Of a DNA stretch of 33,060 nt, positions 2,255 to 6,547 are shown in pieces. Position 1 is the stretch's first letter; each line of letters starts with the position of its first letter. The translations under genes were made by a program, and so were the position numbers. The stretch covers positions 1 to 33,060 of the IMG/VR virus record IMGVR_UViG_3300044723_000231; one strand, 5' to 3'. The notes under the pieces are model-generated. The model was given only the letters and a program-made list of their open reading frames with translations, was not told the DNA's origin and ran no database searches. This DNA comes from a virus (taxonomy: Duplodnaviria; Caudoviricetes).

Positions 2255-2428
2255 ATGACACCATCAGATTTCAAAACGAGGCGGCAATTTCTAGGCTACA
2301 CCCAAACCGAGTTTGCACAAAGGCTGGGGTTATCGCTTAGAACTGTCCAGTATTATGAATCAGGCGAGGTGCCAATAAACAGGACTGTCGAACTGTTATT
2401 GGATGCTATCGAACTGGACGAAAAATAG
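2255..2428 (+). CDS. XRE-family helix-turn-helix regulator (57 aa)
   Basis: R-x2-LGYTQTEFAQRLGLSLRTVQYYESGEVPI is a canonical XRE/Cro HTH; GGAGG SD upstream of ATG 2255. Confidence 0.9.
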   Translation: MTPSDFKTRRQFLGYTQTEFAQRLGLSLRTVQYYESGEVPINRTVELLLDAIELDEK

Positions 2429-2441
2429 AGAAAGGAAAACG

Positions 2442-2549
2442 TGCTATGCATAGCAAGTTATATAAAACTTGCAGTGCATAGCAAGTTATACATCCAGATT
2501 TTTTATATCAACAATCAGGTTTTATTTAACAAGTTTAGCATAGCAAGTT
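2442..2549. repeat. Iteron-like repeats and palindromes in an AT-rich gap (putative replication origin)
   Basis: TGCATAGCAAGTTATA at 2447-2462 and 2475-2490; GCATAGCAAGTT at 2538-2549; perfect palindrome TGCTATGCATAGCA 2442-2455; inverted GCAAGTT/AACTTGC; T-rich tract between the copies. Confidence 0.7.
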
Positions 2550-2571
2550 TTATTAAACACCGCTAATGCGG

Positions 2572-2599
2572 ATTATACAAACAGCGAAAAAGCTGTCAA
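2572..2599 (-). promoter_or_regulatory. Consensus sigma70 promoter pointing left into the repeat region
   Basis: Minus strand reads TTGACA-16 nt-TATAAT. Confidence 0.7.
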
Positions 2600-3027: not shown

Positions 3028-3665
3028 ATCCACCCTACCTTTGTATCTGTTGCCTTGCCATCCCAAACAAACCAAGCGTAAGCAGTCGTGCCGCTACCGC
3101 TAGGCTTTTCATCACCGCGCCAGATAGTTAGACGTTGAGAGAAAACCCACACCCTAGCTGGCCTATGCGAATCGAACAGAGAAACGCGCCTTTGCTTGCC
3201 TTCTAAGAACGACAGGCGCAATAACCAGCAATGCTTTCTAGCTTGTAAACTGATAGCTTTTTGTATGAAGGCTTCAGCATGTTTGTATGGTGGGTTCGTA
3301 ACTATGTTAGGCGCAAGCAACCGCGACTCCATAAGAAAGTCCACGCCAGATTTACCATAGCCATAGTCGTTTAGGTCAGTGCTAGTCACTGAATAGTAGT
3401 GCGAGAAAGGTTCAGAGATAGCACCATCACCACAAGCTGGTTCCCATATACCACCCTCAAAACTTTCAACATCCATCAGTGCTTCAACAGCTACCAATGG
3501 CGTTGGATAAAAGTCGTCCTTCTGCCTGTCCCTCACTTGCTTACTCCATATCACACGGCCTTCAGCACCGTGCCATCCCTGTATTGGGTTACATTCCCAG
3601 CCTTGCGGCACAGGTTCATCAGCCAATGCGTATCTGCAAATCCATTTAGTGATAGTAATTACCAC
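3024..3665 (-). CDS. Phage DNA N6-adenine methyltransferase
   Basis: DFYPTP, SAM-binding WEPACGDG and catalytic NPPY motifs. Confidence 0.85.
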   Translation of the reverse strand: MVITITKWICRYALADEPVPQGWECNPIQGWHGAEGRVIWSKQVRDRQKDDFYPTPLVAVEALMDVESFEGGIWEPACGDGAISEPFSHYYSVTSTDLNDYGYGKSGVDFLMESRLLAPNIVTNPPYKHAEAFIQKAISLQARKHCWLLRLSFLEGKQRRVSLFDSHRPARVWVFSQRLTIWRGDEKPSGSGTTAYAWFVWDGKATDTKVGWI

Positions 3666-3882
3666 CTTCTAAGTCTATCTGGATAAGCATACTGTCTGCA
3701 TCCTCCGGCGGTACACGACCAAAGCCATCACACAATGCACAAGGTTCTATGCTTGCCGCTAAGTACCCGCCATTCATATGGTCAACTACAGCATACTCAA
3801 CTTCATACTCGCCCTCGCCGCCACATACAGGACACTCTACCCATTCATCTTCATTGTCCGTGGTATTGTTTGAAGAAGTCAT
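3646..3882 (-). CDS. DnaJ-type CxxCxGxG zinc-finger protein
   Basis: CPVCGGEG and CALCDGFG repeats. Confidence 0.75.
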   Translation of the reverse strand: MTSSNNTTDNEDEWVECPVCGGEGEYEVEYAVVDHMNGGYLAASIEPCALCDGFGRVPPEDADSMLIQIDLEGGNYYH

Positions 3883-4057: not shown

Positions 4058-4100
4058 ATGATAATACAGTGTTGACAGATTGTCTACAGGGTGGTAACAC
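4058..4100. promoter_or_regulatory. Overlapping divergent promoters with a shared inverted-repeat operator
   Basis: Minus: TAGACA(4086-4081)-17-TATCAT(4063-4058). Plus: TTGACA(4072-4077)-17-TAACAC with extended TG. Operator TGTTGACA-GAT-TGTCTACA at 4070-4088. Confidence 0.75.
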
Positions 4101-4187: not shown

Positions 4188-5084
4188 ATGGAATACACTA
4201 TACCGGACTACCGCAAGGAGTTTGGCTGTTATCACAACAGCGCATCCGGCGGCACACAAAACACCTATGAAAATATCTTCAAGCTGTATCTCCGCAAGGA
4301 ATACAAGATGAACTTTCCTATGTCTGCCCGTCCCCGTGCTGGGCAGGTAGTACAGGAAGGATGTGACCATTACTTTGGGTTGCATGATTATTCGCCTGTC
4401 AGAGGCCAGCAAGAGGGCTTGTCTATTGATGAGTCTATCAGACATGCCATGACAGAGTACATCAACTACACGCCTATTAAATGGGATGGCGGCAAGGATG
4501 CTGATGTATATGAGGCATGTAAAGATGTCATCCCGCAGATGATACGGTATGCCATCGAAGGGCTTGAAGAATACTTTGGTAAGAATGTGGAACTGGTAGG
4601 CGAATACCAGCGCACATTCAAAGATGACCGCATCGACATACCTACTATTATGTTCTTGGACTTTGCGGATGACACCAGACAGATTGATTTGAAGTGCAGT
4701 CTGCCACTAGCCAACCCGCCAAAGAAAGATGGCACAAGGACATGGCGCGTACCAAAGCCTAAGACAGAACCGACTATGCAACAGGTAATGCAACAGGCCG
4801 TGTACTGGAAAGGCACAGGACTGACACCAGCCCTGCTGTTTGTTACAGGCGAGGGTTATCACCTAGCCACACATGAAAACTGTGACATGTTGAGACCAGC
4901 CGTGCTTGAGGAAATGTATGAATCAATCGTACAGCGTTGGCTTGTGTTACAGAATCTTATGAAGGCTGCGAATGGTAACTGGAAGAAACTGTTTGGTATG
5001 GTAACGCCTGACTATGCTGAGATAGCCCAGCGTCACGGCCCTGAGATATTAGACATAGCCAAGCAAGCATGGAGGGCAGAATGA
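4188..5084 (+). CDS. PD-(D/E)XK exonuclease-like protein (RecE/Cas4-like superfamily)
   Basis: E...LDF...IDLK and Q-x2-VY motifs; SD GGAGGG; upstream of annealase and SSB. Confidence 0.7.
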   Translation: MEYTIPDYRKEFGCYHNSASGGTQNTYENIFKLYLRKEYKMNFPMSARPRAGQVVQEGCDHYFGLHDYSPVRGQQEGLSIDESIRHAMTEYINYTPIKWDGGKDADVYEACKDVIPQMIRYAIEGLEEYFGKNVELVGEYQRTFKDDRIDIPTIMFLDFADDTRQIDLKCSLPLANPPKKDGTRTWRVPKPKTEPTMQQVMQQAVYWKGTGLTPALLFVTGEGYHLATHENCDMLRPAVLEEMYESIVQRWLVLQNLMKAANGNWKKLFGMVTPDYAEIAQRHGPEILDIAKQAWRAE

Positions 5085-5317
5085 ACGTACCAACTTACGC
5101 AGAAATACGAGAGGCACTACGCATACCAGAGATATATCAGCTTAATATACCGATTATGACTAGGATAGAGGCTAGGACAAAGGGTTTAAGCAGATACTTT
5201 ACTGGCAATATGTGCAAGCACGGTCATGTTGCTGAACGCGACACGCGAAATGGCGGGTGCATAGAATGTATTAGGACTAACTATGAACTACGGAGGGGTA
5301 ACAATGAGGCAGAATAA
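5081..5317 (+). CDS. Small Zn-binding protein (EARxKGLxRYFTGxxCKHGHVAER...CIEC)
   Basis: Motif usually seen at the N-terminus of phage HNH proteins; no HNH nuclease motif follows; SD before ATG 5081. Confidence 0.65.
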   Translation: MNVPTYAEIREALRIPEIYQLNIPIMTRIEARTKGLSRYFTGNMCKHGHVAERDTRNGGCIECIRTNYELRRGNNEAE

Positions 5318-5672
5318 AAGGATAACTGATACAGACTTGATGGTAATAACTAAAAACGCCTTGCGTCAGAATAACATGGTCACGCTAGAAGACCTTGCCG
5401 AAATGACTAGAATGGAACTGTCCAGGATACCTAATCTTGGAAAGAAAAGTATCAGTCATATTGAACAAGTCCTGTTTGACCATGGCTACAGATTAAGATG
5501 CCGCAATGCTGCATATAATACTAAGTACAGATTCGATGAGGACAAGTTAGCAGTAATTGTACCGCGACTACATGGTCAGCTAAAGATGATGTTAAATGCA
5601 CAAAGTGCTATCAAAGAATCCATGGAAGATTTGGAACAAGCAATGAGATTGGCGAGGGTAAACCATGACTGA
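5304..5672 (+). CDS. Stand-alone RNA polymerase alpha-subunit C-terminal-domain homologue with coiled-coil tail
   Basis: Gapless by-eye match to RpoA CTD: L-x-V-x3-N-x-L ... DL...T-x2-EL-x3-PNLGKKS-x3-I-x2-VL. Confidence 0.85.
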   Translation: MRQNKRITDTDLMVITKNALRQNNMVTLEDLAEMTRMELSRIPNLGKKSISHIEQVLFDHGYRLRCRNAAYNTKYRFDEDKLAVIVPRLHGQLKMMLNAQSAIKESMEDLEQAMRLARVNHD

Positions 5673-5838
5673 GATAGAAGCACAACACGCACAAGCTATC
5701 GACTTTACATCTGAAAGGCTTAACCGTTTAGAGAAAGACATGGCGCATATGCAGAAAAGTATTGATGAACTGCACACAATGCTTGCGTCTTTTATGAAAG
5801 CTATTACTGACTATCAAGAGGCAAACGACAATGAGTAA
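5665..5838 (+). CDS. Small coiled-coil protein (57 aa, MTEIEAQHAQAIDFTSERL...), not in ORF track
   Basis: GAGGG SD; heptad pattern; fills the gap between flanking genes. Confidence 0.7.
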   Translation: MTEIEAQHAQAIDFTSERLNRLEKDMAHMQKSIDELHTMLASFMKAITDYQEANDNE

Positions 5839-6547
5839 TATTCAAGAGGCAATGGGGCTGGTCAATGAACTACACAAAGACCACGCCATCAAACAAAAGG
5901 GCGGCAAGATGTACCTACAGGTGGTGCATCGTGTTGAGGCATTTCGCCGCACAGTAGGCGCAGACTTTGGTATCGACACAAAGATACTGGTAGATGATGG
6001 GCATCGTGTGGTGGTTAAAGCTATCGTAACAAACGCAGACGGTATCACCGTTGGTTCTGGTATGGCTGAAGAAATACGAGGCCAAGGCCATGTGAATACT
6101 ACATCTGCTTTGGAAAACGCTGAGACATCAGCTATAGGCCGCGCACTAGCCAGCCTTGGTTTGTCCGGCGGTGAGTACGCATCAGCTAATGAAATGGAAG
6201 CTGTACCTCGCAAGCAAAAACATCTTGACGATGCAAAAGAAGCTGGTACAACACCCGTTCAGGCGGCGGCTGTCGAGGAAGACCCTCCAAGTCAAACATC
6301 TCCGGCCCCGTCTGACCGACTCTCCGATGATGATATGGAAGCGCAGAATGAAAGGTATGACAAAGCCTTTTACATGGACATGTCGTCCAGGTTGACACAG
6401 GCGCGGCACATTTCTAAAGTTCATGGGCTATTTGAGGAGATGAAACCAAAGATACAAGAGATTAAGAAGCGCAATCCAGAACGTGCCAAGCACATACTGG
6501 AATTGTTTATGAAGCATGAGGACAGACTAAGTAAAGGAGACAGTTAA
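5831..6547 (+). CDS. Single-strand annealing protein (Sak/Rad52-like)
   Basis: KGGKMYLQVVHRV ... ALENAETSAIGRALASLG motif; located between exonuclease and SSB. Confidence 0.7.
   Translation: MSNIQEAMGLVNELHKDHAIKQKGGKMYLQVVHRVEAFRRTVGADFGIDTKILVDDGHRVVVKAIVTNADGITVGSGMAEEIRGQGHVNTTSALENAETSAIGRALASLGLSGGEYASANEMEAVPRKQKHLDDAKEAGTTPVQAAAVEEDPPSQTSPAPSDRLSDDDMEAQNERYDKAFYMDMSSRLTQARHISKVHGLFEEMKPKIQEIKKRNPERAKHILELFMKHEDRLSKGDS

What the first reader, a model, noticed from the sequence alone, without database searches (positions are those of the whole stretch)
5304..5672. Free-standing RNA polymerase alpha-CTD mimic with the key DNA-contact Arg replaced
The N-terminal ~55 aa align without gaps to E. 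coli RpoA 256-307 as I recall it (PNLGKKS, N268, L270, D280-L281, E288-L289 kept), but the R265 position is Ile. R265 is essential for UP-element binding and is the residue ADP-ribosylated by T4 Alt/ModA. A predicted coiled coil follows. Inference: an oligomeric decoy that titrates host activators or NusA, or redirects host RNAP, in a phage with no RNAP of its own.
Basis: partly seen in the sequence, partly recalled or inferred. Interest (0 to 1): 0.7.

Follow-up and report, generated by a model that had tools for sequence, protein, structure and literature searches.

The report
Arginine-less alpha-CTD cassette in marine phage
A marine podovirus with no detectable RNA polymerase gene carries an optional, conserved gene for a detached copy of the promoter-touching tail domain of bacterial RNA polymerase that has lost its key arginine and gained a long helix; it likely forms a dimer that grips DNA without sequence preference and so would disturb host transcription, but this is untested and similar stand-alone phage domains are already annotated.

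Summary
ORF 5304-5672 (+, 122 aa) begins with a true RNA polymerase alpha-CTD: Pfam PF03118 E 2.5e-11, a gapless match to RpoA 254-317, and a model within 0.8-1.4 A of the best-fitting solved alpha-CTDs. The R265 position is Ile, and it is I, P or M in all 37 family sequences covering it. The gene is under purifying selection (dN/dS 0.17 or less), so it is not a decaying copy. It is an exchangeable cassette in an early operon of an HTVC010P-like podovirus, present in 4 of 76 related loci that span the slot. A faithful activator or NusA decoy is poorly supported: identity to RpoA is only 27-38%, V287 and D258 vary, and E286R and L290S are fixed. What is kept is the helix-hairpin-helix GKK, N268, a newly basic face, a family-specific linker and a heptad helix. 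Best reading (0.35): a coiled-coil dimer that binds DNA backbone non-specifically and interferes with host transcription. Rivals are a repurposed protein-binding module (0.3) and a decoy (0.25). Stand-alone phage alpha-CTDs are already annotated in isolates (Goe8, Mazun, Finch, Mithril), and this scan noted the kind on other DNA before. New variant; function untested.

The parts
5304..5672 (+). 122-aa ORF (P0001): alpha-CTD domain + conserved linker + heptad helix; accessory cassette
5313..5504 (+). alpha-CTD (PF03118) fold, residues 4-67 = RpoA 254-317
5346..5348 (+). Ile15 codon at the R265 position (I/P/M across the family)
5430..5450 (+). helix-hairpin-helix hairpin PNLGKKS (RpoA 293-299); G-K-K invariant in 38 of 38 rows, N294 N or G, S299 G in 28 of 38
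5481..5570 (+). residues 60-89: end of the alpha-CTD plus a family-specific linker and helix start; the most constrained part of the gene
   Evidence: (dN/dS 0.09 or less)
5547..5645 (+). heptad-repeat part (residues 82-114) of the long C-terminal helix; predicted coiled coil
5292..5298 (+). ribosome-binding-site-like GGAGGGG inside the end of the upstream gene
5069..5317 (+). upstream 82-aa gene (phrog_1081, unknown function); left flank of the slot
5665..5838 (+). downstream 57-aa helical gene; right flank of the slot, overlapping the cassette stop
4188..5084 (+). 298-aa first gene of the operon; exonuclease-like by my reading, no library hit
5831..6547 (+). 238-aa conserved gene (phrog_11717, unknown function) used as anchor for the presence/absence survey

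Best explanation
The gene is an optional early-operon cassette encoding an RNA polymerase alpha-CTD fold joined to a long heptad helix; the protein likely dimerises through that helix, its two heads likely grip the DNA backbone without the AT-tract preference that R265 gives, and it would thereby compete with host alpha-CTD and activators on upstream promoter DNA rather than imitate alpha faithfully. Shown: domain identity, family-wide loss of R265, purifying selection, cassette behaviour, heptad pattern. Inferred: dimer, DNA binding, expression, and any effect on host transcription.
For: Residues on the DNA face other than R265 and S299 are kept: N268 in 35 of 37 rows, and G296, K297 and K298 in 38 of 38. 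In other alpha-CTD-like domains that lost R265, N268 is kept in 45%, G296 in 57% and K/R298 in 36% of 171. N294 is G in 21 of 38 rows, which gives the G-hydrophobic-G hairpin of generic HhH DNA binders (motif recalled). The domain is more basic than RpoA (+2 to +5 in 14 family sequences against -1, 0, +1 in three RpoA), and ten positions of the 287-side face sum to +2 to +4 against +1, -1, -2. PMC3326320 (passage) states that alpha-CTD binds through an HhH motif without direct sequence-specific contacts and that the A/T-tract preference comes from R265 insertion. Heptad a/d pattern p=0.0035 with an invariant Gln at an a position; helix confidently predicted. The phage lacks a multisubunit RNAP, as HTVC010P-type phages do (PMC8477408 passage).
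Against: R265 is central to DNA binding in E. coli alpha (PMC5101437 and PMC1874639 passages), and S299 is also lost in 28 of 38 rows, so binding may be gone altogether. Positions 264-265 are non-polar in nearly all members, which looks more like a protein-contact patch. 19 of 56 columns in residues 4-59 are invariant among 14 representatives, so invariance of K47/K48 alone is weak evidence. A charge of +3 or more occurs in 23% of 420 other domains. The most constrained stretch is residues 60-89, not the DNA face. No paper that I found tests any phage stand-alone alpha-CTD.
Confidence: 0.35

Rival explanations
1. Repurposed protein-binding module: the alpha-CTD fold no longer acts on DNA or on alpha's partners. 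Together with the invariant linker it binds a host protein (for example a defence component) or a phage protein, and it is kept only where that partner matters.
For: Non-polar I/P/M at 265 beside V/I at 264 (only 27 of 520 other domains have a hydrophobic or Pro residue at 265). Fixed family-specific surface changes E286R, L290S, K304E, S313R. Strongest selection in residues 60-89. Patchy presence, 4 of 76 spanning loci, at least 3 gains or losses, and an unrelated gene in the same slot, as is typical of host-interaction genes (general knowledge).
Against: No partner is indicated by context: both flanking genes occur without it in most relatives. The HhH lysines and N268 are retained.
Confidence: 0.3
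2. One reading: an oligomeric alpha-CTD decoy that cannot bind DNA but titrates host activators, NusA or sigma region 4, redirecting host RNA polymerase.
For: Closest folds are alpha-CTDs. Alphaproteobacterial RpoA CTDs rank 15th and 20th of 555 domains by similarity to the family. The acidic 261-side residues are partly kept: D259 in 14 of 14, E261 as D/E in 13 of 14. T285, E288, L289 and R317 of the 287 patch are kept or nearly so. The phage depends on host RNAP.
Against: 27-38% identity to RpoA against 69% between distant hosts; V287 and D258 variable; E286R and L290S fixed although E286 and L290 are shared by Salmonella and Sinorhizobium. NusA-AR2 uses the UP-element site (reference title). 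Most activator-alpha-CTD contacts are weak off DNA (recalled).
Confidence: 0.25
3. A neutral or decaying remnant of a captured rpoA fragment.
For: Rare and dispensable in the lineage; key residues lost.
Against: dN/dS 0.09-0.17 in all divergent pairs and 0-0.09 in close pairs among 7 distinct coding sequences. All loci that were translated have an intact frame. Family members reach down to 60% identity with constant length.
Confidence: 0.05

Closest known systems
C-terminal domain of bacterial RNA polymerase alpha (RpoA 250-329; Pfam PF03118; PDB 9zum, 1lb2, 1z3e)
   Same: Sequence (gapless, E 2.5e-11) and predicted fold (rmsd 1.2 A over 63 columns to Caulobacter 9zum, 1.1 A over 61 to 1lb2); N268, G296, K298, T285 and core residues kept.
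   Different: No alpha-NTD or linker, so not tethered to RNAP; R265 replaced in all members, S299 mostly G, E286R, L290S, K304E; followed by a family-specific linker and a 40-residue heptad helix.
Annotated non-RNAP alpha-CTD proteins of phages: Bacillus phage Goe8 c00050 (210 aa), Microbacterium phage Mazun gp26 (141 aa), Ruegeria phage vB_RpoS-V16 gene 23 (288 aa), Rhodococcus phage Finch A0A2P1JY10, Mycobacterium phage Mithril A0A5Q2WLP1, uncultured Caudovirales entries
   Same: Phage-encoded PF03118 domain without alpha-NTD.
   Different: Goe8, Mazun and V16 all keep R265 and have unrelated partner domains; the BFVD entries could not be checked at that column. None shares the C-terminal half by sequence. 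None is functionally characterised in the papers I found.
Multi-alpha-CTD proteins of bacteria and metagenomes (up to 12 tandem copies; e.g. P0018, P0023)
   Same: Detached alpha-CTD modules; a third lack R265. P0023 has I at 265 in its best copy and is 38% identical over 82 residues.
   Different: They multiply the domain in one chain; this family has one domain plus a heptad helix.
Phage factors that disable host alpha-CTD function: T4 Alt/ModA, phiKMV-like Rac, Staphylococcus phage G1 gp67
   Same: Proposed target process: alpha-CTD-dependent host transcription (PMC7552054 passages).
   Different: Those are enzymes or a sigma-binding protein; none is an alpha-CTD homologue.
HTVC010P-type pelagiphages (genome context)
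   Same: Major capsid protein 65-75% identical; DnaA_C-domain gene; early and late regions on opposite strands; no RNAP.
   Different: G+C 46% against about 31% in the isolate rows seen; no isolate in the phage collection gave a hit to this gene; host unknown.

Membership tests
PF03118 alpha-CTD domain family | HMM score above the curated cut-off | tested here: met
   43.6 bits against 23.8; 44.7 bits
PF03118 alpha-CTD domain family | Compact four-helix (HhH)2 fold | tested here: met
   Model m56f5e1545436, pLDDT 91-92 over residues 11-60, rmsd 0.8-1.4 A to the best-fitting alpha-CTDs. Caveat: its alignment held 24 other alpha-CTD domains; the family-only model was open, rmsd about 7 A.
RpoA (true RNAP alpha subunit) | N-terminal assembly domain and full-length equivalog score | tested here: not met
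   TIGR02027 43 bits against cut-off 227.8; only profile positions 235-296 of 298
UP-element-binding alpha-CTD | R265 on helix 1 | tested here: not met
   I16, P12, M9 of 37 rows
UP-element-binding alpha-CTD | N268, N294, G296, K298, S299 | tested here: inconclusive
   N268 35/37, G296 38/38, K298 38/38 kept; N294 17/38 and S299 10/38; the window's own copy keeps all five
UP-element-binding alpha-CTD | Binding to A/T-tract DNA | not testable with these tools
   needs EMSA or footprinting
Activator-docking alpha-CTD mimic (287 determinant) | Host-like surface around V287 | tested here: not met
   V287 is M/L/D/E/Q; E286R and L290S fixed; G315 is K/R/E; T285, E288, L289 and R317 kept. The patch membership beyond V287 is recalled; PMC1874639 names V287 and neighbours.
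Sigma4/activator-docking alpha-CTD mimic (261 determinant) | Acidic patch D258, D259, E261 | tested here: inconclusive
   D259 14/14, E261 D/E 13/14, D258 variable
Coiled-coil oligomer | Heptad a/d hydrophobic repeat | tested here: met
   0.82 of a/d positions, shuffle p=0.0035; conserved across 38 rows
Coiled-coil oligomer | Self-association | not tested
HTVC010P-type phages | Related capsid protein, DnaA_C gene, no RNAP | tested here: met
HTVC010P-type phages | Placement in the seven-core-gene tree; SAR11 host | not tested
   no phylogenomic tree built; G+C 46% argues against SAR11; nearest genome-contig relatives only 37-67% identical

The most novel reading that the evidence does not exclude
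Phages have repeatedly captured the host alpha-CTD, and this lineage turned it into a two-headed trans-acting factor: a DNA-blind alpha-CTD dimer that docks on host RNA polymerase or a global alphaproteobacterial regulator through a remodelled surface and shuts off UP-element- and activator-dependent host promoters. That would be a mode of phage transcription takeover by subunit mimicry for which I found no experimental description.
Probability: 0.2. Interest if true: 0.75.

Novelty: new variant of a known kind. Interest (0 to 1): 0.38.

Why it matters
Phage-encoded stand-alone alpha-CTDs are annotated in many genomes, but my ten literature searches found no experimental test of one. This family offers a clean case: a small soluble protein under purifying selection, present or absent between otherwise nearly identical flanking genes, which has dropped the one residue that reads UP elements. 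Testing it would show whether such domains act on DNA, on host transcription factors, or on something unrelated. The interest is moderate because the class is widespread and already labelled, the gene is rare and dispensable in its lineage, the host is unknown, and nothing here shows a function.

Tried and rejected
PHROGs: no family for the protein. Phage isolates by tblastn with the protein: only rpoA on host-derived records. Longer or fused forms: 35 candidates, none at E<=1 (weak evidence). C-terminal half alone in the ESM Atlas: no usable hit. Whole protein in the Atlas: only PF03118 clusters at 0.80-0.84, a lead only. Prokaryote genomes: no relative among 194 pattern matches; the capsid scan gave no close prophage, so no host. 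The first AlphaFold model (12 sequences) was open and gave no Foldseek match at E<=0.001; I treat that as shallow-alignment error, and its weak RecR and RAD51 N-domain rows were not pursued. Complex prediction of two copies was not available, so there is no verdict on the dimer; the VIA-align search was not run. Expression: one true RNA run held a small share of the operon and no contig covered the gene, which is no evidence either way. L014 (43% over residues 18-64) is an unrelated stand-alone alpha-CTD in a different context and was dropped from the family. P0012 and P0016 are partial and were left out of charge and entropy counts. The labels exonuclease, recombinase and SSB for neighbouring genes are my recall and got no library support. 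A recombination role for the HhH domain was considered from that context and not adopted, because the domain is far closer to alpha-CTD than to HHH_5 and is absent from most relatives. Schweimer 2011 (PMC3134791) was not held. Papers read without relevant content: PMC7824862, PMC13374769 (no occurrence of 'phage'), 10.64898/2025.12.12.693979 (RpoA only as two-hybrid fusion).

Full report
Setting. The window is one virus record of 33,060 bases, classed linear and estimated 100% complete. Its major capsid protein is 65-75% identical to those of HTVC010P-type pelagiphages. It has a DnaA_C-domain gene and early and structural genes on opposite strands. No RNAP beta domain was found (PF00562, controls 14 of 14); the T7-type search was empty but had no positive control. 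PMC8477408 (passages) reports that no HTVC010P-type genome has an RNA or DNA polymerase. G+C is 46%, against about 31% in the isolate rows I saw, so the host is probably not SAR11. The capsid scan of prokaryote genomes gave 30 loci at 37-67% identity, several in long alphaproteobacterial contigs. A marine alphaproteobacterial host is an inference.

Observation. ORF 5304-5672 encodes 122 aa. Pfam PF03118 matches residues 3-57 at E 2.5e-11. All 39 PDB sequence hits are RNAP alpha, with residues 7-67 on E. coli alpha 257-317. A model built on 15 family sequences plus 24 other alpha-CTD domains has pLDDT 91-92 over residues 11-60. It matches solved alpha-CTDs with rmsd 0.8-1.4 A for the best-fitting ones and up to 5.6 A for others (47 matches at E<=0.001). 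That alignment favours the fold. The family-only model (12 sequences) was open, with rmsd about 7 A, although alpha-CTDs were still its top rows.

Family. Word-indexed searches found 11 and then 15 proteins, and cluster look-up added close members. The alignment of 38 distinct rows spans 60-99% identity. The profile search of 1.84 billion representatives gave 1,617 hits at E<=0.001; among the best 150 only a family representative covers the whole length, the rest match the alpha-CTD part, and nearly all are multi-copy proteins. At the R265 column the 37 rows that cover it have I (16), P (12) or M (9). N268 is kept in 35 of 37, and G296, K297 and K298 in 38 of 38; N294 is G in 21 and S299 is G in 28 of 38. 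For comparison, 354 of 532 scored domains among 546 in 148 representative proteins keep R265, so loss of the arginine is common outside RpoA, although a hydrophobic or Pro residue there is uncommon (27 of 520). The three isolate-phage proteins that I fetched all keep it.

Selection. Ten loci gave 7 distinct coding sequences. Whole-gene dN/dS is 0.09-0.17 for divergent pairs (synonymous sites near saturation, pS 0.63-0.72) and 0-0.09 for close pairs. Residues 60-89 are the most constrained (0.09 or less); residues 4-59 give 0.02-0.28 where computable and not zero, and residues 90-120 up to 0.40. The gene is maintained, not decaying.

Cassette behaviour. The neighbouring 238-aa gene retrieved 139 viral loci, of which the best 80 were kept. 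Of 78 given to, 74 span the slot and 2 carry the gene; the other two (L015, L016) carry it, giving 4 of 76. L015 has a protein identical to the window's, and L003 and L005 look like near-copies, so independent carriers are fewer. On a tree of the neighbour (32 rows, 7 carriers including loci found through the gene itself) at least 3 gains or losses are needed, and none of 200 bootstrap trees allows one. L010 against L019, and L003 against L041, have near-identical flanks with the gene present or absent exactly at the start codon of the 57-aa gene. A contig from a public run also joins 5284 to 5665. L044 and L030 carry an unrelated gene of about 110 aa in the same slot, and the L030 gene ends in the same junction residues as the L003 alpha-CTD gene. 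This points to exchange of slot genes by recombination at shared gene junctions (inference). The stop and start overlaps suggest translational coupling in an operon starting near 4188; expression was not shown.

Which surfaces are kept. PMC1874639 (passages) defines the 265 (DNA), 261 (sigma4) and 287 (CRP and other activators) determinants. Among 14 representative sequences the signature positions vary: V264 V/I/E, R265 I/P/M, D258 T/L/N/E, V287 M/L/D/E/Q. E286R, L290S and K304E are fixed, at positions where Salmonella and Sinorhizobium RpoA agree. Identity to these RpoA CTDs is 27-38%, while they are 69% identical to each other. In favour of partial mimicry, D259 is invariant, E261 stays acidic in 13 of 14, and T285, E288, L289 and R317 are kept or nearly so. 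Ten positions on the 287 side sum to +2 to +4, against +1, -1 and -2 in three RpoA (my choice of positions rests on recall). The NusA decoy idea is weakened by the reference title stating that NusA binds alpha via the UP-element site. PMC7171158 also says the AR domains occur only in E. coli and some gammaproteobacteria (passages); my recollection is that they are more widespread in proteobacteria, and I did not test it. That T4 Alt/ModA modify R265 specifically is recalled; PMC7552054 (passages) confirms only ADP-ribosylation of alpha.

C-terminal half. After a low-confidence stretch (residues 70-73) comes one helix, 79-121. Positions 82, 86, 89, 93, 96, 103, 107, 110 and 114 are hydrophobic in all 38 rows, with invariant Gln100 at an a position; the best-register a/d fraction is 0.82, reached by 35 of 10,000 shuffles. 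No relative of this half was found outside the family.

Mechanism. I commit to a coiled-coil dimer whose heads bind DNA backbone without A/T-tract preference and interfere with host transcription (0.35). The basis is the retained hairpin lysines and N268, the more basic domain, and the statement in PMC3326320 (passage) that R265 supplies the A/T-tract preference of an otherwise non-sequence-specific HhH contact. Against it, R265 and often S299 are lost, the 264-265 patch is non-polar, a third of the domain's columns are invariant anyway, and the strongest selection lies elsewhere.

Comparison with what is known. Non-RNAP alpha-CTD proteins exist in phage isolates: Bacillus Goe8 c00050, Microbacterium Mazun gp26 and Ruegeria V16 gene 23. 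The viral structure library gave 9 matches at E<=0.001, among them Rhodococcus phage Finch and five uncultured Caudovirales entries named for this domain, with Mycobacterium phage Mithril further down. A plasmid example was also seen. Earlier notes of this scan list 15 findings holding the search words; of the 8 shown, four are in phages, and one describes a marine phage copy that lost DNA-contact residues (unchecked). No note matched this sequence or genome. Ten literature searches showed no paper testing a phage-encoded alpha-CTD. I saw search listings and the passages cited, no whole texts and no supplements, and most subscription papers are outside the library, so absence from print is not established. 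Genome-paper supplements could annotate this gene family.

Verdict. A real, selected, accessory alpha-CTD derivative with a family-wide R265 replacement and a new C-terminal half. It is a new variant of a widespread, annotated but uncharacterised kind. Interest 0.38.

Noticed in passing
window 2426-2599: AT-rich intergenic region with three copies of a repeat with core GCATAGCAAGTT and nested inverted repeats. A perfect TTGACA-16-TATAAT site on the minus strand (2599-2572) points into it. Candidate replication origin with transcriptional activation.
   Followed up: partly
window 4058-4100: Overlapping divergent promoter-like sites around an imperfect palindrome between an HTH_3 gene (minus strand) and the operon starting at 4188; looks like a repressor-operator switch.
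   Followed up: no
L002 4363-5781; L007 976-2394; L010 439-1857: A three-gene insert (Vut_1 transporter-like 161 aa, 86 aa, and about 228 aa starting with an HYHGTP motif) between the 298-aa gene and the 82-aa gene; resembles a 7-deazaguanine DNA-modification cassette (recalled; only Vut_1 had a Pfam hit).
   Followed up: partly
L044 393-725; L030 about 3492-3833: An unrelated gene of about 110 aa without Pfam hit occupies the same slot as the alpha-CTD gene; L032, L033, L037 and L065 have the same slot length as L030.
   Followed up: partly
L046-L071 (lower G+C members), gene before the 238-aa gene: A 136-149 aa protein with an HTH-like start and a helical tail stands where the 57-aa gene stands in the window's clade; possibly a fused counterpart. 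No Pfam hit for the two tested.
   Followed up: partly
L098 1432-2298 (Ruegeria phage vB_RpoS-V16 gene 23): An alpha-CTD (PF03118, E 1.2e-10) at the N-terminus of a protein annotated as HTH protein or pyrophosphatase; the alpha-CTD is unannotated.
   Followed up: partly
proteins P0018-P0024: Metagenomic proteins with up to 11-12 tandem alpha-CTD repeats, and one with sigma70 region 4 plus three alpha-CTDs (P0027).
   Followed up: no
L014 4932-5168: A 78-aa degenerate stand-alone alpha-CTD in a mobile-element-like region near a primase-like gene, a UvrD-like helicase and a DNA methyltransferase (labels from my reading).
   Followed up: no
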